From positions 4,048-68,047 of the forward strand of contig CAYTRS010000002.1 of the NCBI GenBank assembly GCA_964440305.1: a stretch of 64,000 bases of DNA. Direction: 5' to 3'. The translations under genes and the position numbers were made by a program. A model generated the notes under the pieces. That model saw only the letters and a list, made by a program, of their open reading frames with translations, was not told the DNA's origin and did no database searches. The number at the start of each line of letters is the position of its first letter. Position 1 is the first letter of the stretch. The DNA comes from an uncultured Bdellovibrionales bacterium. Lineage in GTDB: Bacteria > Patescibacteriota > Minisyncoccia > Moranbacterales > JAKLHP01. Below, in pieces: positions 39,701 to 64,000 of the stretch.

Positions 39701-39793
39701 TACCCGATCTGCGAGCTTATAATACTCAGCGACAACGGTGCTTTGAGGATTTTCTGCAACTAGATTGTATTTTTTATTATTTGGCATATTCAT
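36719..39793 (-). CDS. hsdR: Type I restriction enzyme R subunit (HsdR)
   Basis: 1024 aa; SF2 helicase motifs TTGSGKTLTSF (Walker A), DECHRSQ (DEAH); HsdR_N-like N-terminus; operon with hsdM/hsdS. Confidence 0.9.
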   Translation of the reverse strand: MNMPNNKKYNLVAENPQSTVVAEYYKLADRVRDGVSYQSEADLERAFIKQLETQAYEYLAITSESDLVSNLRLQLEKLNGFTFADAEWENFFASEIANPNQSIAEKTATIQEDHIRNLTREDGTVKNVYLIKKDNIHDNSLQVINQYATEDGQRANRYDVTILVNGLPMVHVELKRRGVAIAEAFNQINRYQRESFWASAGLFEYVQLFIISNGTHTKYYSNTVRSEHIKEASEGAVKKGKRSSSSFEFTSWWADATNRPITDLMDFVKTFFAKHALLNILTRYCVFTTERQLLAMRPYQIVATERILSRIEVSTNYKKLGTVEAGGYIWHTTGSGKTLTSFKTAQLVSRLTYVDKVMFVVDRKDLDYQTMREYDKFEKGAANSNTSTAILKKQLENPNARIIITTIQKLDRFIGRNSGHTIFDGHVVLIFDECHRSQFGDMHAAITKTFKNYNLFGFTGTPIFAMNASSSGRPDLKTTEQAFGEKLHTYTIVNAIADKNVLPFKVDYVSTVREAENIEDKKVSDIDREAVLASPERLANIVSYIREHFDQKTKRNSFYKLKDRRLAGFNSIFAVSSIDVAKKYYAEFKKQLTNVPSDKQLKIATIYSFGVNDEDADGMIDENSEDTSGLDVSSRDFLDNAIIDYNAMFGTSFDTSSDKFQNYYKDVSLRVKNREIDVLIVVNMFLTGFDATTLNTLWVDKNLRLHGLLQAFSRTNRILNSVKTFGNIVCFRNLEKATNESIALFGDKEAGGIVLLKSYEEYYNGYKDGNKEVRGYTGLVAELLEKFPVGEQIIGEQKQKDFIKLYGGILRVRNILTTFDEFAGNEILTERDIQDYHSMYIDLYNEFRKNADIDQENINDDLVFEMELIKQVEINIDFVLGLIKKYHEDHNKNREILVDINKAIDSSIELRNKKDLINQFITSLDIHSVVDDDWQKFVNKKKIEELEKIIDNEGLDHDATYAFVKNAFRDGSVATTGTAITKVLPPVSRFSPTGERSKKRESVLTKLTNFFERFFDISGGKFTE

Positions 39794-40952: not shown

Positions 40953-40953
40953 A

Positions 40954-42564
40954 TTATTTTGTTCCTTCAATATCAGCCACAATTTTATCAATTGAAATAC
41001 GCAGTTCATTTTGCCTTGCGACAATCTGAGCAATTTTTGAGTTGAGAGAAGTGATGTCCACCACCTCACGCATGTCCTCCCTCACAACATAGCTTGATAC
41101 AGCGATATTGTAGTCGTTCTCAGTAATAGCTTTGTTTTCAACAAGTTTGGTAAAATAGTCTGTGTCTTTACGAGTCGTAAACGCTTCCAAAATCTTGAGG
41201 CGATTTGCCTCGCTCAATTTGTTTTTATTGCCACCACGAACAAATTCGGCAGATGCATCAATAAAAAGTGTTTTATTATCCTTCTTACTTTTTTTGAGAA
41301 CGATGATGCAGGTGGCGATAGTAGTGCCGAAAAAGAGATCAGGCGGCAGTTGAATGACCGCATCAACATAATTATTGTCTATCAGATACTTTCGAATTTT
41401 ACCCTCTGCACCACCACGATAAAGAACGCCAGGAAATTCAACAATCGCCGCCGTTCCGCTCGTTGATAGCCATGCAAGCATATGCATGGTAAAAGCGAGG
41501 TCGGCTTTGCTCTTTGGTGCTAATACTCCTGCTGGCGAGAAACGAGGATCGTTAATGAGAAGAGGATTCGCGTCACCCTCCCAATGAATTGAATACGGCG
41601 GATTGGAAACGATAGCATCAAACGGCTCGTCATCCCAATGCTTTGGATCTATGAGTGTATCACCGTGAGCAATATCAAAATTGTTGTAGTTGATGTCGTG
41701 CAGGAACATGTTAATACGACAAAGATTGTAGGTGGTGAGGTTAATTTCCTGTCCAAAAAAGCCTTGCCTAACATTTTCTCTGCCTAGGACCTTGGCAAAC
41801 TTGAGAAGCAAGGAGCCAGAACCACAAGCTGGATCATAGACCTTGTTCACTTCTTTTTTGCCAACCGTTGTGATTTCAGCCAGAAGTTCACTGACTTCCT
41901 GGGGAGTATAAAATTCACCACCAGACTTACCGGCGTTTGAAGCATACATGGTCATCAAAAACTCATACGCATCACCGAAAGCATCTATGGTATTGTCTGA
42001 ATAGTCACCAAGTCGTAGATCGCCAATAGATTCAAAAAGTTTTGTAAGTTTCTGATTTCTTTTTTCTACCGTACCACCAAGTTTATTGGAATTTACATCA
42101 AGATCTGCAAACAACCCTTTGATGTCATCTTCGCTGTCTGCACCCTTTGCGGAATTTTCAATATTTCTAAAAACGGCGGTAAGCGTTTCGTTAAGATTGG
42201 CATCATTACGAGCGTTCTTACGAACATTAATAAAAAGCTCACTCGGTAAAATATAAAACCCTTTTTCTACTACGGTATCGGATCGACCGAACTCTGCTTC
42301 TTTATTGGAAAGTGTGGCATAGTCAAAATCTTTTTTACCAGCACGATGTTCTTCAGTATTAATATGATTGGTCAAATTCTCACTTATGAAGCGATAAAAG
42401 AGTATTCCAAGCACATACTGCTTAAAGTCCCAACCGTCCACGCTTCCACGCAAATCATTGGCAATCTGCCAAATAGCACGATGTAATTCTGAGCGCTCTT
42501 GCTCCTTGGTCATGTTCAAATCTTTATCTTTTTTGCTCATAAAATTATTTTTTTCTAAACGCAA
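40954..42564 (-). CDS. hsdM: Type I R-M N6-adenine DNA methyltransferase subunit (HsdM)
   Basis: NPPY motif (VSNPPYSIHWEG), SAM motif DPACGSGSLL, HsdM N-terminal domain. Confidence 0.9.
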   Translation of the reverse strand: MRLEKNNFMSKKDKDLNMTKEQERSELHRAIWQIANDLRGSVDGWDFKQYVLGILFYRFISENLTNHINTEEHRAGKKDFDYATLSNKEAEFGRSDTVVEKGFYILPSELFINVRKNARNDANLNETLTAVFRNIENSAKGADSEDDIKGLFADLDVNSNKLGGTVEKRNQKLTKLFESIGDLRLGDYSDNTIDAFGDAYEFLMTMYASNAGKSGGEFYTPQEVSELLAEITTVGKKEVNKVYDPACGSGSLLLKFAKVLGRENVRQGFFGQEINLTTYNLCRINMFLHDINYNNFDIAHGDTLIDPKHWDDEPFDAIVSNPPYSIHWEGDANPLLINDPRFSPAGVLAPKSKADLAFTMHMLAWLSTSGTAAIVEFPGVLYRGGAEGKIRKYLIDNNYVDAVIQLPPDLFFGTTIATCIIVLKKSKKDNKTLFIDASAEFVRGGNKNKLSEANRLKILEAFTTRKDTDYFTKLVENKAITENDYNIAVSSYVVREDMREVVDITSLNSKIAQIVARQNELRISIDKIVADIEGTK

Positions 42565-53121: not shown

Positions 53122-54354
53122 TTATTTGAATATTGAATCTAAAATATTTTTTCTGGCAATTTGAACGGATGGGATGAATCCGGCAATAAGCGATACGACT
53201 ACCATGCTTATTTCCGTGCGCATAAGATCAAGGCTTTCAATATTAAGGCTGATATATCCGATAGGAAGCTCCAGCGGGTGCTTGAGAAAATATGGAGAGA
53301 TTGCGTATTCAAGCAGGAATCTTCCCAAAATCACCCCCATAAGTCCATAAAAAAATGCTTGCAATACATAGGAAATAACAATAGTTTTGCTTTCCATTCC
53401 GATCGCTTTCAAGATTCCGATTTGTTTTTTCTGATTAAGCAAGTCGATATAGATGATTATGAAAATGCTGGCGCCGGAAACAGCCAGTCCGATAGCGTAA
53501 AAAATTAATTTTACAAAATCAAAGCTGTTTGTAACGGTTGACATGGCGCCCAAAAAATCGCTCCAGATATAAAGTTTCAGTTTTTGCTCCAATACATTTT
53601 CTATTTTTGAAATATACTTATTCTCATCTCCCATAGTTGCAGTTTTTACAATTATCTCGTCGGCCAGGTCATGCTGTCCCAAAACATCTTCCATTTCATC
53701 TTTTGTTACATAAGCCTGCGCATCAGCCAGGAAACTCTTGGTAGCAAAAATTCCAGCTACCGTATATTTTCGGCTTATTCCATTGGGATAATAAACATAA
53801 ACTTCATCTCCAACTCGGACCCCTCCCAAAGATGCTCTTTCAAGAGTAGCTTCGAAGCCTCCGCTGATTTCCCGTCCGAGAAGTATCTTGCCTCGATCTC
53901 CATCTTCCAGATATCTTCCGGAAACAATTTTTGAATTTATTTTAAGAACATTTGATTCCTCTGAAGGGATTACGGAATATAAGTATCCGCTGAAGTCTTT
54001 AACGTTAGTTCCTTCTTTCTTCTGATCATATGTGATTTTGACGCCTTCTTTATAGTGCTCTACCGCCCCAATAACACCTGGTATGCTTCTGATGTCATTT
54101 AATGTTTGATTCGCTTGTTTAATATAGTTGTCACTTTCACTTTCCTTGGTCGGTTCGATTACAATGTTTCCGTATTGATAATCTATAACCTGATTGTTTA
54201 TAGTTTTTATAAGTCCGGACATCATGGACGCGATAAAAAGAATATTGATGAAAAGTAAACTTACCACCACTATGGTCATCACGACACTTTTCTTGTTGCT
54301 GCGTGTTAGCTGTTTAAAGCTGAACCAGCAGGCGATGAAAAAATTTCTAAGCAT
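53122..54354 (-). CDS. ABC transporter permease, FtsX/MacB-type
   Basis: TM1, about 200-aa extracytoplasmic domain, then 3 TMs (…IGILKAIGMESKTIVISYVLQAFFYGLMGVILG…). Confidence 0.75.
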   Translation of the reverse strand: MLRNFFIACWFSFKQLTRSNKKSVVMTIVVVSLLFINILFIASMMSGLIKTINNQVIDYQYGNIVIEPTKESESDNYIKQANQTLNDIRSIPGVIGAVEHYKEGVKITYDQKKEGTNVKDFSGYLYSVIPSEESNVLKINSKIVSGRYLEDGDRGKILLGREISGGFEATLERASLGGVRVGDEVYVYYPNGISRKYTVAGIFATKSFLADAQAYVTKDEMEDVLGQHDLADEIIVKTATMGDENKYISKIENVLEQKLKLYIWSDFLGAMSTVTNSFDFVKLIFYAIGLAVSGASIFIIIYIDLLNQKKQIGILKAIGMESKTIVISYVLQAFFYGLMGVILGRFLLEYAISPYFLKHPLELPIGYISLNIESLDLMRTEISMVVVSLIAGFIPSVQIARKNILDSIFK

Positions 54355-54359
54355 TTTGA

Positions 54360-55205
54360 TTATAATTTAAGAAAATCTAAAAACTTACTCAGAACGTCCT
54401 TGTTTTCCCGATGTATCGATTCTTTCAATTGTGATAATTTTATTTTTGTCGCTTTTTCTCCAGCTGAAATTATATCTTTTCCGTCCAGAAATTTTCCCCA
54501 ATGCGCATTTCCAACCCTGGGACTGATAACAATGTCGGCATTTTCGACATTTCGATAGGCCAGGTGATGCCGCAGGAGATTGATTGAATTTTCAGCCATT
54601 TTATAAAAACCGAATTTATTGTTTTCGCTGTTGTTGTCGGCAAAGTAATCGGCATCCAAATTAACCGCTATTACCAAATCCGCTCCCATTTTTCTCACCA
54701 CTTCGACTGGAACGGGCAAAGATAATCCTCCGTCGACCAATAATTTTCCTTCCCTTTCCACGGGCCTAAAAACCAATGGCAAAGAAATACTGGCTCTGAT
54801 TGCCGAGGCAACGTCGCCTTTGTTTATAACAACCGCGTCGCCGTTCTTAAAATTTGTCGCTACTACCGAAAGGGGAACTTTTAAATCCTTAAAATCCATT
54901 TTGTCGATATGATCTTCGATAAAATTGTTTACCTTTTTACCTCCCAGCAATCCCTGGCGAAAAGAAGGATCTATCAATGCTAAAATCATTTTCCAGTTAG
55001 TTCCCAACGCTATCTTTTCCACTTGTCCTATATCTTTGGTAGCGGCATAAAATCCGCCGACCATAGCGCCGATACTTGAACCGGCGATAAAATCGATCGG
55101 AATATTATTTTCTTTCAGAACTTTGATTACGCCGATATGCGCCAGCCCCCTGGGACCGCCGCTTCCCAACGCCAAACCGATTTTAGGTCGTTTTAGTTTT
55201 GCCAT
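54360..55205 (-). CDS. Patatin-like phospholipase
   Basis: GSGGPRG oxyanion motif, GxSxG nucleophile GSSIGAMVGG, DGG(L) catalytic Asp. Confidence 0.8.
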   Translation of the reverse strand: MAKLKRPKIGLALGSGGPRGLAHIGVIKVLKENNIPIDFIAGSSIGAMVGGFYAATKDIGQVEKIALGTNWKMILALIDPSFRQGLLGGKKVNNFIEDHIDKMDFKDLKVPLSVVATNFKNGDAVVINKGDVASAIRASISLPLVFRPVEREGKLLVDGGLSLPVPVEVVRKMGADLVIAVNLDADYFADNNSENNKFGFYKMAENSINLLRHHLAYRNVENADIVISPRVGNAHWGKFLDGKDIISAGEKATKIKLSQLKESIHRENKDVLSKFLDFLKL

Positions 55206-55209
55206 AATT

Positions 55210-56313
55210 TTAATCTGATTCTGCGGGATTATTTTTTACGTTGCCTACCAAAGCCGAAGCCTTATTCTTCATAGACGAAATAACCCGGCTCGCTGTTTTT
55301 CCTATTTCATCTCTGATATATTTTGCATTGTTATATTGCGATGGATAACCGACTAGTTCCATAAAACCAACACCGTTTACTTTTTTATCTTCGAATAATC
55401 CGCTGACCGTAAGCGGTCCCTCCCAATAATTGATTGAACCGAACAGCATTTCCTGATTTTCAATTTTTGCCGACAGAAGCAGATGTATATTTTTTGCCGG
55501 TATTTTGATTTCCCATAACATCGGATAAATAGCCTTGCTTTTAGGGCTTGTCCAATGTCCTTTCAGGGGAATAATTTTAATATTGTCATAATGCTCTTGC
55601 GTATTATCCGGATAAGAGATACTGGCCAAATAAGTTTTTTTCTGGCCGTCATCATACATAAAGCAAACCATTTCCGTATTATTGTCCAATTGCACCGAGA
55701 ACCAATCCCACCTGTCTTTGGAATAACTGGCATCCGCCCACTGATGATCCACCCATGACTTGCCGGTAATATTCACCCATTTATCTTTAATTTTTATTCT
55801 GCCTTCTGTTTTCAGGTTGGTTAAGGAATAATAATAGGTTGCTTTAGAATGAAGATCAAGAAAACCCTTCCCGCCTTCCAGCAAGGGCTTTTTAATTGAA
55901 GTTAATATCAAATCCATATCTTCATTTTTTAAGCGGTATTTTGATTCGTCTGTTTTTTCAATAGCGCAGTTAGTATAACCGTTCTTAATTTCCGGATTGA
56001 TGTAATTTATATGAAGCAGGGATTTGGAAAAACTGTCATCAGAAACAACAGAAAAGGGAGATATCCTATGCTGAAAACTTTTATTATTTATGTCTGAAAC
56101 GAGTGAATGTGAGAAGTAGGATGTTTTAAGCGGAATCTTACTTAAAAAAGGTATTTTTACTTTTTTGACATCCACTTTGAACAGGCAATCCATATATGAA
56201 TATTCGTTGCCATATTTGTCTTTAAGATGGCCGTTAAAATACCACCATTCAACAATGGCGTCATGAGCCGATTCGTCTTCTGGGAACTTTATAGGTTCAT
56301 ATTCTTTATACAT
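55210..56313 (-). CDS. CrtC/AttH-like lipocalin-fold protein (hydroxyneurosporene-synthase-like/secreted hydrolase family)
   Basis: N-terminal FPEDESAHDAIVEWWYFNGHL matches the CrtC/AttH hallmark FPxDHxxHxxxxxEWWYxTGxL. 4-nt spacing to patatin. Confidence 0.45.
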   Translation of the reverse strand: MYKEYEPIKFPEDESAHDAIVEWWYFNGHLKDKYGNEYSYMDCLFKVDVKKVKIPFLSKIPLKTSYFSHSLVSDINNKSFQHRISPFSVVSDDSFSKSLLHINYINPEIKNGYTNCAIEKTDESKYRLKNEDMDLILTSIKKPLLEGGKGFLDLHSKATYYYSLTNLKTEGRIKIKDKWVNITGKSWVDHQWADASYSKDRWDWFSVQLDNNTEMVCFMYDDGQKKTYLASISYPDNTQEHYDNIKIIPLKGHWTSPKSKAIYPMLWEIKIPAKNIHLLLSAKIENQEMLFGSINYWEGPLTVSGLFEDKKVNGVGFMELVGYPSQYNNAKYIRDEIGKTASRVISSMKNKASALVGNVKNNPAESD

Positions 56314-56599
56314 AAATTGCTTTCAAATTATTAAAATCATTAAAAGACGCTCCATTTATTAGTTTAGATAGCTACGAAAATGAAGCGCCCAAAATGCTTT
56401 ACATATTATCAAATGGCGGCTTTTTTTCTTGCCAAGCCCACACTAGATATCCGGCAATAGCAATAACCGCGACGACTCCAATTCCGATTCCAATTGTCAT
56501 GGGACTTGACCAATCAATGTTTGCTAGAAAATTTGTTGGCATATTTTTATTTTTATTAACTCATTTATTAAGTCCTTGAGGCGGACTGGTCCTCGACCT

Positions 56600-57187
56600 T
56601 TAAAATAAAGCGGCAATAATTTGATCTGATATTTTTGCCGAATTTATTTTTTTATTAAGAAACGAATATTCCAAAAGCAATCCGTCCATCATGCCGGTAA
56701 GCATGGAAGTTAGAAGTTGGCTATCAACTTTACCGGTTAGTTTCTTACTTGCGAAAGCTTCTTCAATTATTGGTTGAATCAGATCAGCAACCCGTTCTCT
56801 TAATTGAGTAATGTGTTTTGTTATCTGTCTATCGGCCGGCGATAATTTTAACACTATAGATTTGATAAGATTTTTTTCTCTAAATCCAAACTCTAAGTAA
56901 TTCTTAATCAGTTTGTGTAATTTTTTATCAATCGTGGTTTCGTTCATCGCTTCGGTAATAGCCAAACTCAAATCATCAAAAACTTCATCCAGTACTTTTT
57001 CATAAATTTCGGCTTTACCAGTGAAATGATAGTAAAGCGCAGCTTTGGTTATATCCAGTTTTTTGGCGATATCGCTCATAGAAACACCCAAATAACTATA
57101 TTCGGAAAAAAACTGGCGGGCTGTGTCAACAATATATTTCTTGGTGTCTTGAATAACGTCTTCTGGTTGTTTTGCGATTGTTTTCAT
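56600..57187 (-). CDS. TetR/AcrR-family transcriptional regulator
   Basis: HTH ARQFFSEYSYLGVSMSDIAKKLDITKAALYYHFTGK. Confidence 0.8.
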   Translation of the reverse strand: MKTIAKQPEDVIQDTKKYIVDTARQFFSEYSYLGVSMSDIAKKLDITKAALYYHFTGKAEIYEKVLDEVFDDLSLAITEAMNETTIDKKLHKLIKNYLEFGFREKNLIKSIVLKLSPADRQITKHITQLRERVADLIQPIIEEAFASKKLTGKVDSQLLTSMLTGMMDGLLLEYSFLNKKINSAKISDQIIAALF

Positions 57188-57211
57188 GCTTTCTTGGTTA
57201 CTTCTTATTTA

Positions 57212-57227
57212 CTTACCGATAGGTAAG
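57212..57227. promoter_or_regulatory. Candidate TetR operator palindrome cttacc-gata-ggtaag
   Basis: Perfect 6-bp inverted arms with a 4-nt spacer, 25 nt upstream of the tetR start. Confidence 0.45.
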
Positions 57228-57387
57228 CTATTTTCAGTATGCCTTAGGTGCAATTATTTGTCAAGCACATGTACGGGTTTAGGCACAGGGTTTTAGATCA
57301 TAAATAAAAAAAGAAACACTTGTAATTAACAAGAGCTTCTTTTATCAGACTGAAACTAATTTGATAACCTATAAGTTATTGATACGA

Positions 57388-57430
57388 CTACAAAGAAAGG
57401 CGCGCACTCCGAAGAGTATTTTCTTTGTAG
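57388..57430. other. Stem-loop with 11-bp perfect inverted repeat (ctacaaagaaa/tttctttgtag) and 21-nt GC-rich loop
   Basis: Seen directly; lies in a 500-nt non-coding stretch between the cargo genes and the terminase module; no U-run. Confidence 0.4.
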
Positions 57431-57677
57431 AGCATTCATGTCGGAATGAGAATTGCTATGTGATTGATATCATGAATATATTTTGATGAAGTTAAGAATT
57501 ATATTTTTCCTGGACATTCGGTCTCTGTCGACCCCCTCTTGCATTTCTCCTCAAATACTCCAAGCAAAGACCTGATTATATTTCCAGGAATCTTAATCGG
57601 CTGAAACAATTATATCTCGGAGCGCGATAAGTTACGGTAAAAATCCGGTAAAGATTTCGTCAATTTTGCAGAGCACT

Positions 57678-57893
57678 TCAATAATCGATATTCTTCATCT
57701 TTTTGAAAAAACTGCGCCGGGTGCGCGACGCCACTTTCCACCAATTGACTATTTGTTTGTTTTTTATTTCAATCACCACTCTGCCGAATCCTTCTTTCTC
57801 GATGGATGCAAGATCTCTCGCAATCTCCGAAAGCAGTAGGTTGCGTTCCTGCTCGTCCGACATATTCGTTTTTCGTTTATTTGTTCGGTTCAT
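57678..57893 (-). CDS. Small basic hypothetical protein (71 aa)
   Basis: ORF track; overlaps the terminase stop by 17 nt. Confidence 0.3.
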   Translation of the reverse strand: MNRTNKRKTNMSDEQERNLLLSEIARDLASIEKEGFGRVVIEIKNKQIVNWWKVASRTRRSFFKKMKNIDY

Positions 57894-59439
57894 ACTTCAT
57901 TCTTTTTTTAAAAGCTATATGCCAATAAATCAGGGCGTGCCAAGCGTGATCCGTGCCGGTCGTCGATTCCCATTCCCGCTTTTCCTGTCCGAATTGATTG
58001 GTGACAGTTCGAGCATACATTGTCTGGGCGTGGTCTATCAGCATACGGAAAGTCGCATTATCCGGTTTCATGGCGAACTTTATTTCGCCGCGCCGCAGAG
58101 AAGAAATTGTGTCGTCGATGATGCGATTGCGCGAAGAGAGCACTTTGACTTCTTCCTCGAAAGCTTTGTCGTCCTCTTCTTTCTCGTCATTCCACCGGAT
58201 CACTTCCAGCATCTTCGGATCTTCCTTGTAAAAATTTACGTATACGCGGTACGGAAATTGGCGGGCCAGACGCAGAGCCTCCTCCGTCCATGGCATAGCG
58301 TCGATAACGCATACCCGCACGTCATAGAATTGGATAAGTTCCGCCATATATTCCCAGCGCGTTTTGTTCGGATGATCTTTTATTTTACCGATCCAAAAAA
58401 TTCCCTTGGCATTGCCGATTACGATGTGATTCTCATCCCCGGTATCCGCGCCCATCACATTCCAGCCGGATGTTTCAACTTCTTCATTTGTAATATTGCG
58501 AAGAAACAAGCTTTGTGAAACTTTTTGATCCGATGCGATATATGGCAATCCGAGGACGAAATTGTAGAAATATTTTTGGTCTTCGGCGCTGGCTTCTTCA
58601 TCAAGAAGATCGGCCGCACTGCGCCATGGACATATCATCTGGCTGATCCAATATCCGCTTATTGGCTCTCCCGGATACCGGGCTTTCCATCGGCCGGTAT
58701 CGCAGACCCAGCGAGGAGTGATTTCCTTCCGACATTTCTGGCAGACATAAATCCTTCGCTCGCGATCGACATTCTTTTCCCAATCCATATGCTGTTCATA
58801 ATCGCAATGAGGACAATTAAACCGCCAGTGTTTTTGGTCTGATTGTCCGAACAGACGATCTATTCCTACATCCGGAACTGTCGGGGTTGAAAAATAATGC
58901 TGGCTTCTTATTTTCGAAAATCCCATACGGCTGGTATAGTCGCGAATGACCTCGGGCTTGGATTTGTCGAGTTCATCATGAATGTTGCGGTCCGAGGTAA
59001 GCATAATGGCTTCCTTTTCTGTATATGTCCCCTTAAAAAACAGGAATGATTTTCCGATCTGTTTTTGCTCTATTGAATCCACATCTCTTCCGCTCACTCC
59101 TTCCAAAACGCAAGGATTTGTTTTCACGATCCTGTTCACTTTGCTTTTTACAAACTCGGCCACGTCATCCGCCGTCGGCAAAGTGTAAATTTGATTGATA
59201 CCCCAGAAGCGCGCCGCGTGGATCGCCCGCAAAATTTCCATCGTGCTCGCTCCGATCTGCGAACCTTTGCGTATGGCTTGCATCGGGGTTCTGTCCGAAT
59301 AAATATCCAGCATAAAACGGTGGTCAGAAAATTCGATTGGTTCTCCGCTTTCGCTTTTTATTTTATTCCGCTTGATCCAATACAGAATGCTACTTTTTTG
59401 TTTTTCCTTTTCGTCCATAGAAATCTTTGATGGTTTCAT
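57877..59439 (-). CDS. Phage terminase large subunit (GpA/lambda-like family)
   Basis: N-terminal ATPase region (…IRKGSQIGASTMEI…), Zn-ribbon-like CPHCDYEQ…CQKCRKEI, C-terminal nuclease region with acidic residues; 520 aa. Confidence 0.65.
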   Translation of the reverse strand: MKPSKISMDEKEKQKSSILYWIKRNKIKSESGEPIEFSDHRFMLDIYSDRTPMQAIRKGSQIGASTMEILRAIHAARFWGINQIYTLPTADDVAEFVKSKVNRIVKTNPCVLEGVSGRDVDSIEQKQIGKSFLFFKGTYTEKEAIMLTSDRNIHDELDKSKPEVIRDYTSRMGFSKIRSQHYFSTPTVPDVGIDRLFGQSDQKHWRFNCPHCDYEQHMDWEKNVDRERRIYVCQKCRKEITPRWVCDTGRWKARYPGEPISGYWISQMICPWRSAADLLDEEASAEDQKYFYNFVLGLPYIASDQKVSQSLFLRNITNEEVETSGWNVMGADTGDENHIVIGNAKGIFWIGKIKDHPNKTRWEYMAELIQFYDVRVCVIDAMPWTEEALRLARQFPYRVYVNFYKEDPKMLEVIRWNDEKEEDDKAFEEEVKVLSSRNRIIDDTISSLRRGEIKFAMKPDNATFRMLIDHAQTMYARTVTNQFGQEKREWESTTGTDHAWHALIYWHIAFKKRMKYEPNK

Positions 59440-59962
59440 CTATTGCCAATCCCAATTCCTCTTCTTCCGCAGTCGGCGGCTTTTGCTCTTCTTCCTTGAT
59501 GCTCAATTCATGTTTGCCGAGGGACTCGCCCATCTCGGTGCGGAACATTTCCCATAGCTTTTTTATCTCATCCACCGTCGACCCCTCTCCCTTTTTTATC
59601 TGTTTTTTGAGAACCTGCAATTTTTCCCAAAATATCTCAGCAATAACACCAACTTTCTTCTGTTTAATTTCCTGGGCCTTTTTATGAAGACTCTCCAAAT
59701 CTTCGGTTAGTTTCAGGTCTTTTCGTTCGACCCAGCGAAATTTTGAAGACCATTCGGCAATAGTTCTGAGTGTCGGCGGAGCTCCTAATCGCCCCCTGAG
59801 ACCGGCCATTTCCGATGAAGAGTCAATGAAGCCTTGATGAAGTCCTTCCCACATGCGGTGGAGCTTCTCCAAGCTCCCTGATTCGCAATACAAAAGCCAG
59901 GCAGTGTATTGCTGTTCTGTCTCTTTCGGCATTTTGGAGGTTGTAAGAATTGGCTTGCTCAT
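59390..59962 (-). CDS. Putative terminase small subunit / DNA-packaging protein (by position)
   Basis: 190 aa; overlaps the TerL start by 50 nt; charged C-terminal half; preceded by direct repeats. Confidence 0.35.
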   Translation of the reverse strand: MSKPILTTSKMPKETEQQYTAWLLYCESGSLEKLHRMWEGLHQGFIDSSSEMAGLRGRLGAPPTLRTIAEWSSKFRWVERKDLKLTEDLESLHKKAQEIKQKKVGVIAEIFWEKLQVLKKQIKKGEGSTVDEIKKLWEMFRTEMGESLGKHELSIKEEEQKPPTAEEEELGLAIDETIKDFYGRKGKTKK

Positions 59963-59977
59963 AATCGACCGGAGACC

Positions 59978-60028
59978 ATGGTGAACCCTGGTGAAAATTA
60001 ACCAGAGGTCATAGTGAACCCGGGTGCT
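59978..60028. repeat. Two direct repeats CAT(G/A)GTGAACCC(T/G)GGTG flanking a small inverted repeat ctggtgaaaattaaccag; candidate pac/TerS-binding site
   Basis: catggtgaaccctggtg (59978-59994) and catagtgaacccgggtg (60010-60026), immediately upstream of the TerS-like gene. Confidence 0.4.
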
Positions 60029-61300
60029 TTAGTTTTTTATTTTGACTTTTTCCCAACGCTTTCTGATCACATCGCACCAGCGCGGATCCAGCTCCAACAG
60101 ATAGCATGTTCGACCCAATTTATTGGCGGCAAAAAGCGTGCTGCCCGATCCGCCGAAAAAATCGACGACAGTGTTTCCGACCCGACTGGAATTTTTGATG
60201 GCTCGCATGATGAGCCACTCCGGTTTTTCGGTCGGATGCGCCATCTTGGTGACAGCCTTTCTCGGCATATCCCATACGTCGCTTTCGTTGTTGTCTCCAT
60301 AGAAATAATGTCGCTCTCCCTTTTTCCAGCCGTACATAATCGGCTGAGCTTTCGTTTTGCTTTTGCTTCTTTTAGCCTTCATGATTTGCTCGTATTGCTT
60401 CTTGTAGTCGCCCCAGCCGATGGAAAAAGACGGTTTCACCCATACGAGTGTCGATGAAAATTCAAAACCTGAATTGAGCATCTCGTAGTACCACAGAGAA
60501 TAACTGGTATAGCCGGTGCAGACATAAATCACTGCGCCCGGCTTCAGAATTTCATGATAATTTTCAAACACCTTTTTGCTGAATGCCTCGAAATCTTCCT
60601 GACTTTGCTGATCGCCAAGAATCCTGCCCTGCTCGGTCGGAAATTTTCCTTTCTTTTCATGACTGATGTGATCCACATTGTATGGCGGATCGGTAAAGAC
60701 CATATCGGCTTTTACCTCCCCCATTAGTTTTTTTACATCTTCGATTTTCGTCGCGTCTCCGCACATGAGACGATGCTTTCCGAGTTTATAAATTTCGCCA
60801 TACTTCGATTCCGGCTTTTTTATTTCCTCGTATTCTTCTTCGACAGTTTTCTCCTCTTCATCAAGCTCATCAAGTATCCGACTGTCAAGAAGATTGCTGA
60901 TTTCCACTTCATTGAAACCGGTAACCGAAAGATCAAAATCTGAATGGTTAAGTTCCACCATGAGATCGGCCAACTTCTCATCATTCCAATCTCGCCGCTC
61001 GGCAATCTTATTCAAGGCTAGACTCAGCGCCTTTTCTTCTTCTTCAGGCAAATCCACCAAATCCACATTTTCCTTCGGTATCGTTTCCCAGCCCAACTCC
61101 TTGAGAACCATGACGGTCATATTACCGCCAATAATGAATCCTGTGCGGTTTTTATGAGCATTGACCGTTATCAATCCTCGGAGTCCGAATCTTTCGACTG
61201 ATTTCTTCAATGCATCTATATCTTCTTGTTTGATATCCCGCGGATTGTAAGGCGGATGTTTGAGATCAGATATTTTTATTGTTTTCGTATTTTTATCCAT
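60029..61300 (-). CDS. ParB-like nuclease domain + DNA N6-adenine/N4-cytosine methyltransferase fusion (phage-type)
   Basis: N-terminal ParBc pattern (…HPPYNPRD…ALKKSVERFGL…); methyltransferase motif IV VFTDPPYN; C-terminal SAM-binding …VVDFFGGSGSTL. Confidence 0.8.
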   Translation of the reverse strand: MDKNTKTIKISDLKHPPYNPRDIKQEDIDALKKSVERFGLRGLITVNAHKNRTGFIIGGNMTVMVLKELGWETIPKENVDLVDLPEEEEKALSLALNKIAERRDWNDEKLADLMVELNHSDFDLSVTGFNEVEISNLLDSRILDELDEEEKTVEEEYEEIKKPESKYGEIYKLGKHRLMCGDATKIEDVKKLMGEVKADMVFTDPPYNVDHISHEKKGKFPTEQGRILGDQQSQEDFEAFSKKVFENYHEILKPGAVIYVCTGYTSYSLWYYEMLNSGFEFSSTLVWVKPSFSIGWGDYKKQYEQIMKAKRSKSKTKAQPIMYGWKKGERHYFYGDNNESDVWDMPRKAVTKMAHPTEKPEWLIMRAIKNSSRVGNTVVDFFGGSGSTLFAANKLGRTCYLLELDPRWCDVIRKRWEKVKIKN

Positions 61301-61521
61301 AGGCGTGTTAAAAATAATTTAAAACGAATCCTTGTGCGCACCCACTTCGGAAGATCAGTGAATCTTTCCACAATATTTTCTCGCTGGATCAATTCTATGC
61401 GTCTTCTCCGTGCTTCAACCAGCAAGGCAGAAGGGATGCGAATATCTTCCGATGGACTATTCCCCCTTTGAGGAAGGATCTTCCTTCGGTAAAATTTTGG
61501 TTCTGACATATTCTTCTTCAA
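61276..61521 (-). CDS. Small basic hypothetical protein (81 aa)
   Basis: ORF track; overlapping arrangement in the phage module. Confidence 0.3.
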   Translation of the reverse strand: MKKNMSEPKFYRRKILPQRGNSPSEDIRIPSALLVEARRRRIELIQRENIVERFTDLPKWVRTRIRFKLFLTRLWIKIRKQ

Positions 61522-61753
61522 TTAATTTTTTTGTTGTTAGGATGGCGTGTTCGACTTTTTCGGTTCGCTCGTTATATTCTGCCACCATTTCCTTCTTGGT
61601 TTTTTGACCGTCTAAATTGAATGGAGTCAAACGAGGAATCACCACGTCATCATCTTCGCGGTCTTCAAGATTGCGAATCGCAATTTCCAACCGCAACATT
61701 TCTTCCAATAGCGAGTCGTGAATCGACTCTAAAATTTCAAGTCTGGTTTTCAT
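61457..61753 (-). CDS. Hypothetical protein (98 aa, helical)
   Basis: ORF track. Confidence 0.3.
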   Translation of the reverse strand: MKTRLEILESIHDSLLEEMLRLEIAIRNLEDREDDDVVIPRLTPFNLDGQKTKKEMVAEYNERTEKVEHAILTTKKLIEEEYVRTKILPKEDPSSKGE

Positions 61754-62055
61754 ATTGTTGTAATTTCGAACTTATCTGTTTTCTCATTCCAACGCCAATA
61801 TTCTTTTGATGTATGCGGAGGTCTTGGAAATGCAAACATTCGTTCCTGGTCAGCTCTTGATCGGGAACTGAAGCGCTCCGAACTGACTTGAATAAAACGA
61901 ATTTCTTTTTTCCCCACTGCTACCAAATCCCAACACCCAAAAAGATCCTGCGGTTGAAATTTTGCAACACGGGCTTTTTCGATCCAATAGCCTTCCTGAG
62001 AAATAATATCCTGCGCTTTTTTCTCGATAATTTTTCCTTTTTGAGTTCGATTCAT
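61750..62055 (-). CDS. Small PD-(D/E)xK-like nuclease candidate (101 aa)
   Basis: …EGYWIEKARVAKFQPQDLFGCWDLVAVGKKEIRFIQVSS… resembles an E…D…(E/Q)VK core; weak. Confidence 0.3.
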   Translation of the reverse strand: MNRTQKGKIIEKKAQDIISQEGYWIEKARVAKFQPQDLFGCWDLVAVGKKEIRFIQVSSERFSSRSRADQERMFAFPRPPHTSKEYWRWNEKTDKFEITTI

Positions 62056-62120
62056 AATTATTTAATATGGCGGATTTTGTTTTTTTGTCCCGCCCTTAGC
62101 GGCAAGGCCGCCGATGCCTG

Positions 62121-62402
62121 TTAAAGTCCGACTGACGTCGGTCTGGCACTGCGCGGAAGTTCCGGCACGTCAAGCCGAACACTGACTCGAGCTTTGCTTC
62201 TGCGACCGACAAGATTCATGATCGAGCGTATCGCTTTGATAGCGCGTCCGTCTTTCCCGATCACGATTCCCGCATCGCCTTCGCCAAGCTTCACTGAAAG
62301 GAGAACGCCCATCTCATCAACATGCCTTGCTACCTGCACCTGTTCCGGATAAGTAACAATGGCCTGCAAAATCGCCTCCAATAAATTTTGATCTTGTTCC
62401 AT
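62121..62402 (-). CDS. KH-domain RNA-binding protein (KhpA-like)
   Basis: …LGEGDAGIVIGKDGRAIKAIRSIMNLVG… KH GXXG-loop signature. Confidence 0.6.
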   Translation of the reverse strand: MEQDQNLLEAILQAIVTYPEQVQVARHVDEMGVLLSVKLGEGDAGIVIGKDGRAIKAIRSIMNLVGRRSKARVSVRLDVPELPRSARPTSVGL

Positions 62403-62506
62403 AGCTTTTTTCTTTATGATTTTTTATCTTTTAGCCGCCTGTCGACCGCAGGCAGAAATGTGGATTAGCCACACTTGGAGAGTCAGACTTTCCGATTCCG
62501 AACACC

Positions 62507-63787
62507 TCAGGTGTCGCCAATGCTTTCTTCGGTTTTTCTTATTGCTCTCATAATCTCAATTGCCACTTGCGGGACAATCGCATTTCCGAGAGCCTTCAGT
62601 CTCTCTATCCGATGTCTTGATTTTGACAATTCAAGTCCGTCCAGTTCTGCGGATAGCCCATCATCCACTCCACAAAGTTCGGTTGCAACCTCAAGCCAGG
62701 AGCGTTCCCAACTTTTTCTCTCAAATTTGAACACCCACCTTTTTTTGCCTGATCGCTTCTTTCTTCCGGCTTTCTGATATCGTTCCGCATATCCATCACG
62801 CTCGGAGTGGGAAGCATGGCCAATACATCTTTTACTTTCACACCGAATCTCACTCCTTTTCGATTTACTCTGCTCCATCGTCCGTTTTTCAATTCCGCGT
62901 TCTTTACCGGCGACCCTTCTTTTTCGCTCACTCTCGGTGTCGGAAGCAACGCATTTATCGCTTCCTGAACTTGTTCTCCCATATTGTGTTTTCCCCTGTC
63001 TCTCATCGCCGCTCGACTGTCTTGCGCCTTCGGCGTTCCCAAAAGCTGCGGCCACAAGCGAGTTTTTCTCAAATCGCTCGCCCCTCCCGCCAAAAGCTGT
63101 TCGTAAAGATTGCCGGGCGGAACCGTGTTGCGCCCTGACTTGTTTCTGTTTGCCTGACGCTTCAGATAGCTTTCCGGATTTTTTCTTTCTATCGGCCGTA
63201 TCGCCGACGGCGTGAGCAACAAACCAGATTCGGTCTCTTCGGTGCGGAGCGTTGACGGCGACAGCTGGAATAATAAACGGCTGGATTTCGTAACCGGAAT
63301 TTTCCAGGTCAAGACACACTTGCTCGAATACCATTCCGTTTTGCATAGTAAACAATCCGCGCACATTTTCAGCGATGACCCAGCGCGGTTTTGTAAGGCG
63401 GATGACTCGAAGCATTTCCGGCCAGAGATAGCGGTCGTCATCGGTTCCCCGTCTTTTTCCGGCTTGGGAGAACGGTTGACACGGAAAGCCGCCCGTGAGG
63501 AGGTCAATACATCCCAAATTTCTGGATTGCTCAACACAAAATTCGTTGCTCCTTTTGCTTTCCAACTCTTGCTTGTTTTTCGTTGTATGTGGTCGCTTGC
63601 CGAAGGAGTTGGCAATAGATTTGATTTCTTTGATGTCCTCATATATTTTTGAATTTGGAAATCTTAATTTCAATAATCTCTGGCAGTAGGAATCGTTATC
63701 GCAAAAAACATGTTCCGAATTGGGCCAGACTTCTTCGACTGCCAGAGCGAAGCCGCCGATGCCTGAAAATAAATCAAGATGTTTCAT
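62507..63787 (-). CDS. DNA (cytosine-5)-methyltransferase whose conserved motifs are split across two overlapping reading frames (possible frameshift, pseudogene or recoding)
   Basis: Frame A (426-aa ORF): motif I DLFSGIGG, motif IV GGFPCQPFSQAG, motif VI ENVRGL, motif VIII-like APHRRDRIWFVA, then about 190 aa of R/K/E/S low-complexity, then C-terminal motif X LKALGNAIVPQV. Frame B (ORF 62605-63642): LLPTPSASD / LLLTPSAIRP / LLPTPRVSE / MLPTPSVMD repeats and motif-IX-like FVEWMMGYPQNWT. Confidence 0.55.
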   Translation of the reverse strand: MKHLDLFSGIGGFALAVEEVWPNSEHVFCDNDSYCQRLLKLRFPNSKIYEDIKEIKSIANSFGKRPHTTKNKQELESKRSNEFCVEQSRNLGCIDLLTGGFPCQPFSQAGKRRGTDDDRYLWPEMLRVIRLTKPRWVIAENVRGLFTMQNGMVFEQVCLDLENSGYEIQPFIIPAVAVNAPHRRDRIWFVAHAVGDTADRKKKSGKLSEASGKQKQVRAQHGSARQSLRTAFGGRGERFEKNSLVAAAFGNAEGARQSSGDERQGKTQYGRTSSGSDKCVASDTESERKRRVAGKERGIEKRTMEQSKSKRSEIRCESKRCIGHASHSERDGYAERYQKAGRKKRSGKKRWVFKFERKSWERSWLEVATELCGVDDGLSAELDGLELSKSRHRIERLKALGNAIVPQVAIEIMRAIRKTEESIGDT

Positions 63788-63799
63788 ATGCTTTTCTTT

Positions 63800-64000
63800 T
63801 TATTTTCGCGAAATACTGAATGATTCCTTCAGCTTCTTGAGCGCCTCGACCATTACGCTCATCGCGTTCGCTTCATTTTCGGTTTTCAGTTTTCTGCCAT
63901 TGCCATACTGCAAAGCAATTCTTTCCAGGTTTCCGTAGAAACCATATTCTCGGGAACTTGCTTTGATGAAATCCCTGATCACTTCTTTGCAAAGCGCCGC
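63800..64000 (-). CDS. Hypothetical protein, probably 5'-truncated by the window end
   Basis: ORF 63800-63982 (60 aa) in the track; a longer true gene beyond the window is possible. Confidence 0.25.
   Translation of the reverse strand, partial: AALCKEVIRDFIKASSREYGFYGNLERIALQYGNGRKLKTENEANAMSVMVEALKKLKESFSISRK

What the first reader, a model, noticed from the sequence alone, without database searches (positions are those of the whole stretch)
62507..63787. m5C methyltransferase gene with catalytic motifs in one frame and TRD/motif-IX-like sequence in an overlapping second frame, around a locally GC-rich, low-complexity stretch
Frame A (426-aa ORF) holds motifs I-VIII in the first ~195 aa (DLFSGIGG, GGFPCQPFS, ENVRGL, APHRRDRIWFVA) and motif X (LKALGNAIVPQV) at the extreme C-terminus. 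In between is about 190 aa of R/K/E/S/G low-complexity text that looks like an out-of-frame read.

The overlapping frame B (62605-63642) encodes four LLPTPxxxD-type repeats and FVEWMMGYPQNWT, which resembles the motif-IX region (…LMGFP..W) that should lie between the target-recognition domain (TRD) and motif X.

So the intact protein would need A to B at about 63200-63225 and B to A at about 62600-62640. Options: (i) two compensating indels, from assembly or sequencing error in a GC-rich patch (62900-63250 is visibly GC-rich compared with its flanks); (ii) a methyltransferase inactivated by frameshifts, i.e. a pseudogene; (iii) programmed frameshifting; (iv) frame A is real with a low-complexity TRD and frame B is a nested or accidental ORF.
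Basis: seen in the sequence. Interest (0 to 1): 0.55.

Follow-up and report, generated by a model that had tools for sequence, protein, structure and literature searches.

The report
Nested two-gene cytosine methyltransferase
A prophage DNA cytosine-methyltransferase gene holds a second complete gene in its +1 reading frame: the outer protein supplies the catalytic domain and the inner one the missing DNA-recognition part, a rare but already described layout (M.EcoHK31I) that is conserved in many phages and is not a sequencing error or a broken gene.

Summary
ORF A (62507-63787, minus strand, 426 aa) has m5C motifs I-VIII and X. ORF B (62605-63642, 345 aa) is nested in the +1 frame and has LLPTP-headed modules and the motif-IX-like block.

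It is not an error or a pseudogene. An independent metagenome contig is identical over 907 nt, and the identical A protein is on record from 15 contigs.

The same layout holds in 83 of 84 related loci. Frame A is never interrupted across the B-specific stretch in 67 unique loci (0 stops against about 299 expected). Frame B is open across motifs IV-VIII in 67 of 67, while the third frame is closed everywhere.

Substitutions follow frame A at both ends and frame B in the middle. A's synonymous sites are constrained where the frames overlap.

B usually starts at an ATG inside motif III, often behind a Shine-Dalgarno-like motif, and its first module lies upstream of motif IV. No conserved slippery site was found.

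Best reading: two polypeptides, as in M.EcoHK31I. Alpha is the catalytic large domain with two disordered spacers, and beta is the recognition modules plus motif IX.

Frameshifting is not needed. The arrangement is known, but it is much more widespread than annotation suggests.

The parts
62507..63787 (-). ORF A, the 'alpha' polypeptide (426 aa): large catalytic domain of an m5C methyltransferase with motifs I-VIII and X, interrupted by two spacers
   Evidence: The AF2 model is confident for residues 1-55, 91-102, 121-198 and 395-425. Foldseek matches M.HhaI, M.HaeIII and DNMT1 over about 200 columns, E 1e-11 to 1e-12. An identical protein, P0121, is on 15 contigs.
62605..63642 (-). ORF B, the 'beta' polypeptide (345 aa), nested in the +1 frame: N-terminal module, core domain, four more modules and a motif-IX block
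   Evidence: There are 423 database homologues, almost all called as separate proteins with no Pfam domain. The profile finds 39,666 cluster representatives at E<=1e-3.
63632..63646 (-). Alpha motif III (IYEDI) that contains the beta start codon (tAT GAG GAC ATC read as ATG AGG ACA TC = M-R-T-S)
   Evidence: in most of the 67 loci the first ATG of B is the +1 reading of I-Y-[GED]-D-I; the beta consensus start is MxTSxxxxLLPTP.
63752..63775 (-). Alpha motif I (DLFSGIGG)
63500..63628 (-). Alpha spacer 1 (residues 54-96, between motifs III and IV). In frame B it encodes the first module (head LLPTPSASD at 63592-63618)
   Evidence: AF2 pLDDT is below 50 for alpha residues 59-71 and 78-89. The distance from the beta ATG to PCQ varies from 11 to 107 codons among loci. 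Module type 25 is mostly N-terminal in homologues.
63467..63493 (-). Alpha motif IV (GGFPCQPFS, catalytic Cys)
63223..63453 (-). Beta core domain (about residues 64-140, MTTAISGRKC...WYS..C.LTWK...RLLFQL.PS), dual-coded with alpha motifs IV-VIII
   Evidence: Near-invariant beta G74, C77, L98, W104, S106, L111, W113, R122 and L127, with fixed alpha codon choices. Alpha 4-fold site diversity is 0.49 here against 0.70 in alpha-only parts. B is open in 67 of 67 loci against 10.7 expected.
63353..63370 (-). Alpha motif VI (ENVRGL)
63215..63250 (-). Alpha motif VIII (APHRRDRIWFVA). Its 3' end read in +1 is the second module head, LLLTPSAIR (63196-63222)
62606..63193 (-). Alpha spacer 2 (residues 199-394): an R/K/E/S/G-rich, predicted disordered stretch that is the -1 reading of beta's module and motif-IX coding sequence. 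It is kept free of stops so that motif X is reached
   Evidence: pLDDT is 31-43 for residues 199-384. There are 0 stops against about 299 expected over 67 loci. Against L092, substitutions at alpha codon positions 1/2/3 number 70/24/17, with 66 synonymous in B and 19 in A.
63019..63045 (-). Beta module head 3 (LLGTPKAQD)
   Evidence: type 21
62923..62949 (-). Beta module head 4 (LLPTPRVSE), which starts the most common module type (…SPVKN.E..NG.WSRVN.KGVRFGVKVKDV)
   Evidence: type 1, 49 modules in 49 proteins. AF2 pLDDT is up to 93 for beta residues 245-280.
62791..62817 (-). Beta module head 5 (MLPTPSVMD)
   Evidence: type 12, found both before and after the core domain in other proteins
62632..62697 (-). 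Beta motif-IX-like block (GLRLQPNFVEWMMGYPQNWTDL). In frame A it reads ...ELCGVDDGLSAELDG...
   Evidence: Nearly invariant in 107 beta proteins. It aligns to the in-frame LAPAFSEWMMGWPAGW of the single-chain Mycobacterium phage Rita methylase (E 4e-7). Alpha 4-fold diversity is lowest here, 0.11-0.14.
62564..62599 (-). Alpha motif X (LKALGNAIVPQV), downstream of the beta stop codon (62605-62607)
   Evidence: The frame-A codon signature returns here, with diversity at positions 1/2/3 of 0.36/0.25/0.65.

Best explanation
The locus encodes a DNA cytosine-5 methyltransferase made of two polypeptides from two overlapping genes on one stretch of DNA.

Alpha (frame A) is the large catalytic domain: the AdoMet-binding and catalytic motifs I-VIII, plus motif X. 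It carries two unstructured spacers whose sequence is only the by-product of beta's coding sequence. Selection keeps these spacers free of stop codons so that translation reaches motif X.

Beta (frame B, +1) starts at its own ATG inside alpha's motif III. It provides what alpha lacks: the variable DNA-recognition region, built from LLPTP-headed modules, and motif IX. Together these are the 'small domain' of a canonical m5C enzyme. Beta also has a conserved core domain that is dual-coded with alpha motifs IV-VIII.

The two chains are inferred to assemble into the active enzyme, as shown experimentally for M.EcoHK31I.

What is shown here: both frames are conserved, open and under purifying selection; the layout is the rule in relatives; alpha's ordered part is an m5C large domain; and beta's C-terminal part is homologous to the in-frame variable region and motif IX of a single-chain relative.

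What is inferred: independent initiation of beta in this organism, assembly of alpha and beta, and that the modules read the target sequence. The gene lies in a prophage-like segment, so the enzyme probably protects phage DNA from host restriction.
For: 1. Layout. In 83 of 84 loci B is in frame A+1. In 83 of 84 the matches to alpha's N-terminal motifs and to motif X lie in one uninterrupted A ORF. All 72 complete cases are nested. Paenibacillus, Bacteroides, Salmonella epsilon15 and Rhizobium phages share the layout.

2. Frame A is kept open. There are 0 stops against about 299 expected over 67 unique loci, and the window's P(open) is below 1/300. The third frame has 670 stops there.

3. Frame B is kept open across the fixed motif IV-VIII region in 67 of 67 loci (10.7 expected). 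The third frame is open in 0 of 67.

4. Codon-position signatures. Alpha-only ends have position-3 diversity of 0.65-0.66. In the spacer the highest diversity is at alpha position 1, which is beta position 3. In the overlap, position 3 drops to 0.47 and 4-fold sites to 0.49 against 0.70.

5. Window against its closest relative L092. In the spacer, 66 substitutions are synonymous in B and 19 in A. In motifs IV-VIII, 17 are synonymous in A and 7 in B, at half the substitution rate.

6. Beta's start. The ATG lies in motif III in most loci. Shine-Dalgarno-like 5-mers lie upstream in 22 of 67 loci against a 6% background, p 2e-11. A module is encoded upstream of motif IV, which makes no sense for a frameshift fusion at motif VIII.

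7. No conserved slippery site.

8. The alpha AF2 model gives a confident large domain that matches M.HhaI and M.HaeIII, with both spacers at pLDDT below 50.

9. Beta residues 199-335 align with the in-frame modules and motif IX of the phage Rita methylase.

10. Precedent. [quoted passage not shown] Alpha has motifs I-VIII and X, beta has motif IX, and both are required (PMC2836561; PMC3404938). Phage MM1 is annotated with nested alpha and beta subunits.
Against: There is no direct evidence that beta is translated in this organism. The window has no Shine-Dalgarno-like motif before beta's ATG, although alpha's start has none either and both leaders are A-rich.

Beta alone gives a poor AF2 model (pLDDT 63, pTM 0.29) with no fold or sequence match in the PDB, so its role as the small domain rests on sequence homology to one single-chain relative and on the motif-IX signature.

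Sequence homology to M.EcoHK31I itself could not be tested.

In M.EcoHK31I the TRD is reported to be in alpha, unlike here.

A short beta-like ORF also occurs in phage enzymes whose alpha is complete (MM1 and Javan374), so the beta core domain must have a role beyond supplying motif IX.

Five of 120 beta-type database proteins are fused in frame to motifs I-III.

Low-level frameshifting that yields some single-chain product cannot be excluded.
Confidence: 0.8

Rival explanations
1. Programmed recoding: ribosomes, or the RNA polymerase by slippage, shift +1 near the end of motif VIII and -1 just before motif X. This would yield one canonical chain with motifs I-VIII, the variable region, motif IX and motif X.
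For: The order of motifs along the DNA is the canonical one. Single-chain relatives with the same modules in frame exist, such as phage Rita. In variant L085 only one shift would be needed. An A6 run lies at 63179-63184.
Against: Frame A has no stop after the supposed shift site in any of 67 loci, although about 299 are expected. Recoding would not select for that.

Frame B is open and conserved for about 140 codons upstream of the supposed shift site, back to an ATG in motif III, with modules upstream of motif IV.

Canonical -1 heptamers occur near the B stop in only 15 of 67 loci and not in the window. No long homopolymers occur there. The A6 run lies after the first module head.

Two efficient opposite shifts in one gene would be unprecedented.
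Confidence: 0.07
2. Both frames are translated, but beta is not a subunit of the methyltransferase. It is an overprinted protein with another role, for example a regulator, a DNA-binding factor or an anti-restriction factor. Alpha would work alone or with a host factor.
For: Short beta-like ORFs covering only motifs IV-VIII are conserved in phage enzymes whose alpha has its own TRDs, motif IX and motif X. Examples are MM1 and Javan374, with at least 80% coverage in 94 phage records. Beta has no Pfam or NCBIfam model.
Against: Alpha here has no motif IX or ordered variable region at all. The only motif-IX-like sequence is in beta, and it is homologous to the in-frame one of phage Rita. M.EcoHK31I shows that exactly such a beta is required for activity.
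Confidence: 0.08
3. Artefact or decay: two compensating indels from assembly or sequencing, or a frameshifted pseudogene.
For: On its own, the window looks like a gene whose middle is out of frame. A few relatives are truly broken (L002, L043, L064, L086).
Against: An independent JGI contig is identical over 907 nt. The identical alpha protein is on 15 contigs from several sources. The layout is conserved in 83 of 84 loci, and both frames are under purifying selection.
Confidence: 0.01
4. Only frame A is functional. Its low-complexity middle is a novel TRD, and frame B is a fortuitous ORF in a T-poor sequence.
For: The coding strand is purine-rich, which lowers stop-codon frequency. NCBI annotates only frame A.
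Against: In the middle region, substitutions are synonymous in B, 66 against 19 in A. Diversity peaks at beta position 3. The third frame is full of stops, 670 in 67 loci. The A middle is predicted disordered. B carries the near-invariant motif-IX block.
Confidence: 0.02

Closest known systems
M.EcoHK31I (E. coli, target YGGCCR), a heterodimeric C5 methyltransferase
   Same: [quoted passage not shown] Both chains are needed for activity, and internal ATGs of beta can initiate (PMC2836561; PMC3404938).
   Different: In M.EcoHK31I the TRD is reported to lie in alpha, and beta (a 23-kDa construct, 'C23') contributes only motif IX. Here the alpha stretch between motifs VIII and X is an overprinted, disordered spacer, and beta (345 aa) carries five LLPTP-headed modules, one of them encoded upstream of motif IV. 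M.EcoHK31I belongs to a restriction-modification pair, whereas this gene is in a prophage-like segment. Sequence homology could not be tested because no sequence was available.
M.AquI (target CYCGRG), a two-subunit C5 methyltransferase
   Same: It is a natural split of an m5C enzyme within the variable region into two polypeptides that reassemble (PMC3404938). Relative L085 of the window gene has this split: alpha stops after motif VIII, and beta carries the modules, motif IX and motif X.
   Different: In M.AquI motif X is on the small subunit. That the M.AquI genes are consecutive rather than nested is from my own knowledge. In the window, motif X stays on alpha and beta is fully nested.
Streptococcus phage MM1 orf13/orf14, annotated 'C5 methyltransferase alpha subunit / beta subunit' (DQ113772.1)
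   Same: A nested +1 ORF over motifs IV-VIII of a phage C5-methyltransferase gene, already annotated as a beta subunit. It weakly matches the same PHROG as the window's beta (phrog_1008, E 5e-4).
   Different: The MM1 beta has 141 aa and covers only the motif IV-VIII overlap. In the close relative Javan374, alpha carries its own APTLT-type TRDs, motif IX and motif X in frame. No functional data could be read.
Single-chain phage methylases with in-frame LLPTP modules (Mycobacterium phage Rita gp76, ShiLan gp70)
   Same: The same LLPTP-headed modules and the SEWMMGWPxGW motif-IX block lie between motifs VIII and X.
   Different: All of this is in one reading frame with the catalytic motifs. A 153-aa +1 ORF still covers motifs IV-VIII and ends in two further modules.
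Multispecific C5 methyltransferases of Bacillus phages (SPR, phi3T, rho11s, H2), cited from my own knowledge of the Trautner-laboratory work
   Same: Tandem, exchangeable recognition modules lie between motifs VIII and IX. In the beta family each module type occurs at most once per protein, and module types change position between proteins.
   Different: These enzymes are a single polypeptide. No sequence similarity was detected between the beta profile and an SPR-like enzyme (hhalign E 0.16). Multispecificity of beta is untested.

Membership tests
Nested two-polypeptide C5 methyltransferase (M.EcoHK31I type) | The small-subunit ORF lies entirely inside the large-subunit ORF, on the same strand and in a different frame | tested here: met
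   B (62605-63642) lies inside A (62507-63787) in the +1 frame. The same holds in all 72 complete related loci.
Nested two-polypeptide C5 methyltransferase (M.EcoHK31I type) | The large subunit has motifs I-VIII and X but no motif IX | tested here: met
   The motifs are located. Alignment to M.HhaI covers only residues 2-47 and 91-191. Residues 199-384 are disordered in the AF2 model.
Nested two-polypeptide C5 methyltransferase (M.EcoHK31I type) | The small subunit carries motif IX | tested here: met
   The block GLRLQPNFVEWMMGYPQNWT is nearly invariant in 107 homologues. It aligns to the in-frame motif-IX region of the single-chain Rita methylase. No direct profile match to canonical motif IX was obtained.
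Nested two-polypeptide C5 methyltransferase (M.EcoHK31I type) | Both reading frames are functional, meaning maintained by selection | tested here: met
Nested two-polypeptide C5 methyltransferase (M.EcoHK31I type) | Two separate polypeptides are made, and both are required for methylation | not testable with these tools
   This needs expression and activity assays. The only indirect support is Shine-Dalgarno-like enrichment before the beta ATG in relatives.
Nested two-polypeptide C5 methyltransferase (M.EcoHK31I type) | Sequence homology to M.EcoHK31I alpha and beta | not tested
   No sequence was available. Lee et al. 1995 is not held, there is no supplement, and there is no DNA match in E. 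coli genomes.
Programmed ribosomal frameshift gene | A conserved slippery site at the frame junction | tested here: not met
   A -1 heptamer lies near the B stop in 15 of 67 loci and not in the window. No homopolymers occur there.
Programmed ribosomal frameshift gene | The zero frame terminates soon after the shift site, and the shifted frame is closed upstream of it | tested here: not met
   Frame A is open to motif X in 67 of 67 loci, and frame B is open upstream to motif III.
C5 cytosine methyltransferase (Pfam PF00145) | The catalytic large domain, with FxGxG, PCQ and ENV motifs and the fold | tested here: met
   Pfam E 8e-42. TIGR00675 scores 124.9 bits against a cut-off of 100.65. Foldseek matches M.HhaI and M.HaeIII.
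Multispecific phage C5 methyltransferases (SPR type) | Tandem TRDs, each conferring a separate target specificity | tested here: inconclusive
   The modules are discrete types, occur once per protein and shuffle in position. There is no sequence similarity to an SPR-like enzyme, and specificity cannot be tested.

The most novel reading that the evidence does not exclude
Beta may be a plug-in specificity subunit. Its LLPTP-headed modules are interchangeable recognition units: at least 12 recurrent types, each present at most once per protein, placed before or after the core domain. Phages could then re-assort the set of sequences they methylate while the catalytic alpha stays constant.

The roughly 80-residue beta core domain, read in the +1 frame of motifs IV-VIII, may be an ancient overprinted domain. 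It is shared by a large fraction of phage C5-methyltransferase genes, including ones whose alpha is already complete. Its function, perhaps docking to alpha or regulation, is unknown.
Probability: 0.3. Interest if true: 0.7.

Novelty: new member of a known kind. Interest (0 to 1): 0.45.

Why it matters
It explains a gene that looks broken. Annotation pipelines see one methyltransferase with a junk middle (NCBI calls only frame A) or one unnamed 'hypothetical protein' (metagenome callers often call only frame B). In fact about 1 kb of DNA is read in two frames to make one enzyme.

The layout, known experimentally from a single E. coli enzyme, turns out to be the rule for a very large set of phage and prophage C5 methyltransferases, with tens of thousands of beta-like cluster representatives.

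There are three consequences. Both ORFs should be annotated. Such genes should not be 'corrected' or scored as pseudogenes. Specificity prediction for these enzymes should look at beta and not at alpha.

The locus is also a clean natural example of long same-strand dual coding under selection. If the modules are recognition units, it is a natural scaffold for split, re-targetable methyltransferases.

Tried and rejected
1. The AF2 model of beta alone (107-sequence alignment) was poor, with mean pLDDT 63 and pTM 0.29. A Foldseek search of the PDB gave nothing at E<=0.001, and a PDB sequence search with the beta profile gave nothing. There is therefore no structural proof that beta is the small domain.

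2. hhalign of the beta profile against the SPR-like alpha of Streptococcus phage Javan374 gave no similarity. My idea that LLPTP corresponds to the 'APTLT' TRD motif has no sequence support.

3. The attempt to place M.EcoHK31I in this family failed. blastn of the gene against all complete E. coli genomes found no match. The 1995 paper and the MM1 genome paper are not held. PMC2836561 has no supplementary text.

4. Literature searches for a description of the phage-wide nested arrangement found none. The Paenibacillus phage paper lists two cytosine-methyltransferase genes without comment.

5. The first clustering of modules, which included the LLPTP head, merged nearly everything. It was redone on the tails only.

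6. The first test of frame-B openness was circular, because the region was defined by the ORF itself (second part). It was replaced by a fixed motif IV-VIII region with the third frame as a control.

7. A chimeric A-B-A structure prediction was considered and dropped, because no alignment could be supplied for it.

8. One PHROG query (L090) was translated in the wrong frame and is ignored.
Full report
**What is there**

On the minus strand, ORF A (62507-63787, 426 aa) and ORF B (62605-63642, 345 aa) overlap over the whole length of B. B is in the +1 frame of A.

A is a C5 cytosine methyltransferase by Pfam (PF00145, E 8e-42) and by TIGR00675. It aligns with M.HhaI only over residues 2-47 and 91-191. 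Its motifs I, III, IV, VI, VIII and X were located.

A residues 201-394 are R/K/E/S/G-rich and only 16% hydrophobic.

B matches a phage family labelled 'DNA methyltransferase' (phrog_1008, E 2e-26). It has no Pfam or NCBIfam family.

The extra one, at B residues 9-17, lies upstream of motif IV. B also has the block GLRLQPNFVEWMMGYPQNWTDL.

The GC rise at 62900-63250 is real but modest.

**Not an error and not a pseudogene**

A JGI contig from another sample (L094) is identical to the window over all 907 aligned positions of the gene. The identical A protein (P0121) is on record from 15 contigs and several sources. NCBI names it as a methyltransferase of a Candidatus Omnitrophota MAG, and 60-94% identical full-length relatives come from Patescibacteria-type MAGs.

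The same two-frame layout is present in Paenibacillus phage Bloom, where both nested CDSs are annotated. It is also present in two Bacteroides phages, Salmonella phage epsilon15, a Rhizobium phage and an uncultured podovirus.

I took 80 IMG/VR loci retrieved with the B family, plus four phage loci and the window.
- In 83 of 84, B is in frame A+1.
- In 83 of 84, the N-terminal motifs and motif X of A lie in one uninterrupted ORF.
- All 72 complete cases are nested.

**Both frames are maintained by selection**

I shuffled B's codons synonymously in the stretch from the end of motif VIII to the B stop. This predicts about 299 frame-A stop codons over 67 unique loci, and none is observed. For the window alone 9.5 are expected, and none of 300 shuffles left A open.

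In the fixed region between motifs IV and VIII, frame B is open in 67 of 67 loci against 10.7 expected. The third frame is open in 0 of 67, with 357 stops. In the spacer region the third frame has 670 stops.

Nucleotide diversity by codon position has a frame-A signature before the B start (0.39/0.31/0.66) and after the B stop (0.36/0.25/0.65). Between motif VIII and the B stop, the most variable position is A position 1, which is B position 3.

Where B overlaps motifs IV-VIII, A's four-fold synonymous sites are markedly less variable: 0.49 against 0.70, with local minima of 0.27-0.36. Near-invariant B residues such as W104, S106 and W113 fix A's codon choices.

For the window against its nearest relative L092, the spacer has 111 substitutions. 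By A codon position they number 70, 24 and 17, and 66 are synonymous in B against 19 in A. In motifs IV-VIII the rate is about half, and 17 substitutions are synonymous in A against 7 in B.

**Two polypeptides rather than recoding**

Recoding would not select for an open frame A after the shift site, nor for an open, conserved frame B upstream of it. Both are observed.

In most loci the first ATG of B is the +1 reading of motif III (I-Y-x-D-I read as M-x-T-S). Most B proteins begin MxTS..LLPTP.

The distance from that ATG to the PCQ motif varies from 11 to 107 codons. Alpha tolerates insertions there that encode B's N-terminal modules.

Shine-Dalgarno-like pentamers lie 5-18 nt upstream of B's ATG in 22 of 67 loci, against 6% of background positions (p 2e-11). 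The window has none for either start, and both leaders are A-rich.

Canonical -1 heptamers near the B stop occur in only 15 of 67 loci and not in the window. No long homopolymers mark that junction.

**What the two products are**

An AF2 model of A built with 88 homologues is confident for residues 1-55, 91-102, 121-198 and 395-425. It is disordered (pLDDT 31-50) for residues 59-89 and 199-384, which are exactly the stretches where B's modules are encoded. Its ordered part matches M.HhaI, M.HaeIII and DNMT1 over about 200 columns.

According to PMC3404938, the large domain of C5 enzymes holds most of the conserved motifs. The small domain holds the variable region and motif IX.

B residues 199-335 align (E 4e-7) with the LLPTP modules and the SEWMMGWPAGW block of Mycobacterium phage Rita's methylase. 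There these elements lie in frame between motifs VIII and X.

Alpha is therefore the large domain, and beta supplies the small-domain elements.

B alone modelled poorly and gave no PDB match. This part rests on sequence homology.

**Comparison with what is known**

M.EcoHK31I is described as a natural heterodimer. [quoted passage not shown] Alpha has motifs I-VIII and X plus the TRD, beta has motif IX, and both are needed (PMC2836561; PMC3404938).

M.AquI is split into a subunit with motifs I-VIII and one with motifs IX-X. Relative L085 has this split.

Streptococcus phage MM1 is annotated with a nested 'C5 methyltransferase alpha subunit' and 'beta subunit'.

The window gene meets the topological and motif criteria of the M.EcoHK31I type. 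The biochemical criterion cannot be tested here, and sequence homology to M.EcoHK31I could not be checked.

It differs from the published description in three ways.
- Alpha's region between motifs VIII and X is an overprinted spacer.
- Beta carries all the recognition-type modules.
- One module is encoded upstream of motif IV.

The beta profile finds 39,666 representatives at E<=1e-3 and 3,467 at E<=1e-30 among 1.84 billion clusters. Some of the weak hits may be single-chain enzymes with in-frame LLPTP modules. I found no paper that describes this breadth.

**Further observations**

The LLPTP-headed modules fall into at least 12 recurrent types. Each occurs at most once per protein, and many are found on either side of the core domain. 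This is what exchangeable recognition units would look like. However, there is no detectable similarity to the TRDs of an SPR-like enzyme.

A short beta-like ORF that covers only motifs IV-VIII is conserved in streptococcal and related phages whose alpha is complete. The beta core domain therefore has a role that I cannot name.

**Verdict**

This is an intact, conserved, dual-coded locus that encodes a two-polypeptide C5 methyltransferase of the M.EcoHK31I kind, in a prophage-like segment next to a terminase and a ParB-fused N6/N4 methyltransferase. My confidence in this reading is 0.8. Frameshifting, artefact and pseudogene are unlikely.

Noticed in passing
L087 301-1470 (Mycobacterium phage Rita gp76): The LLPTP modules, motif IX and motif X are in frame with motifs I-VIII, so this is a single-chain enzyme. 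Even so, the +1 frame over motifs IV-VIII is a 153-aa ORF that ends in two more LLPTP modules. The frame that carries the modules switches at different points in different lineages. In this GC-rich phage the open +1 frame could be partly chance.
   Followed up: partly
L095 1050-2207 and 1201-1626 (Streptococcus phage MM1); L091 (Javan374): A short nested +1 ORF (141 aa, phrog_16143) is annotated as the 'beta subunit'. It overlaps only motifs IV-VIII. In the close relative Javan374 (L091), alpha carries its own APTLT-type TRDs, motif IX and motif X in frame. The Javan374-type ORF is at least 80% covered in 94 phage records. Its C-terminal 'CSLSDILE' is the +1 reading of motif VIII, RERVFIVGH. 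Its function is unknown.
   Followed up: partly
L085 55-1110 and 81-299: In this variant alpha stops four codons after motif VIII, and beta carries the modules, motif IX and motif X in one frame. This is an M.AquI-like split with overlapping genes.
   Followed up: partly
L086 421-1675: This is a decayed relative. An in-frame stop follows 'LTGGFP', where the catalytic Cys codon should be. Alpha is broken, and the motif-IX-like sequence lies in a third frame.
   Followed up: no
P0006, P0008, P0068, P0099, P0117 (database proteins): In five of 120 beta-type proteins, motifs I-III are fused in frame to the beta sequence and the catalytic motifs are skipped. The DNA for P0008 could not be fetched. 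These could be frameshifted copies or another arrangement.
   Followed up: partly
window 62632-62697 (alpha codons about 361-380): This is the lowest synonymous diversity in the whole alpha ORF (0.11-0.14). Beta 'EWMMGYP' and alpha 'GVDDGLS' are both conserved, and a '(V/L)xDG(L/I)(S/P)..LD' motif recurs in alpha about 25 residues before motif X in distant relatives. Both frames may be functionally constrained here.
   Followed up: partly
window 57877-62402: This is a prophage-like gene set beside the methyltransferase: terminase large subunit (57877-59439), a ParB-N-terminal domain fused to an N6/N4 DNA methyltransferase (60029-61300), and a KhpA/B-type KH-domain protein (62121-62402). The same KH gene follows the methyltransferase in L092 and L094. 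No tRNA was found in 54000-64000. The element runs off the window end.
   Followed up: partly
window 36719-42564: A complete type I restriction-modification system: hsdR (36719-39793), hsdS (39777-41069) and hsdM (40954-42564), about 20 kb from the prophage-like segment.
   Followed up: no
L043, L033, L064, L002: These are the few exceptions to the intact layout among the retrieved loci. L043 has a frame change between motifs VI and VIII. In L033, B is interrupted by one stop. In L064, A is interrupted by one stop. L002, from a deep-sea phage, has a broken N-terminal part.
   Followed up: no
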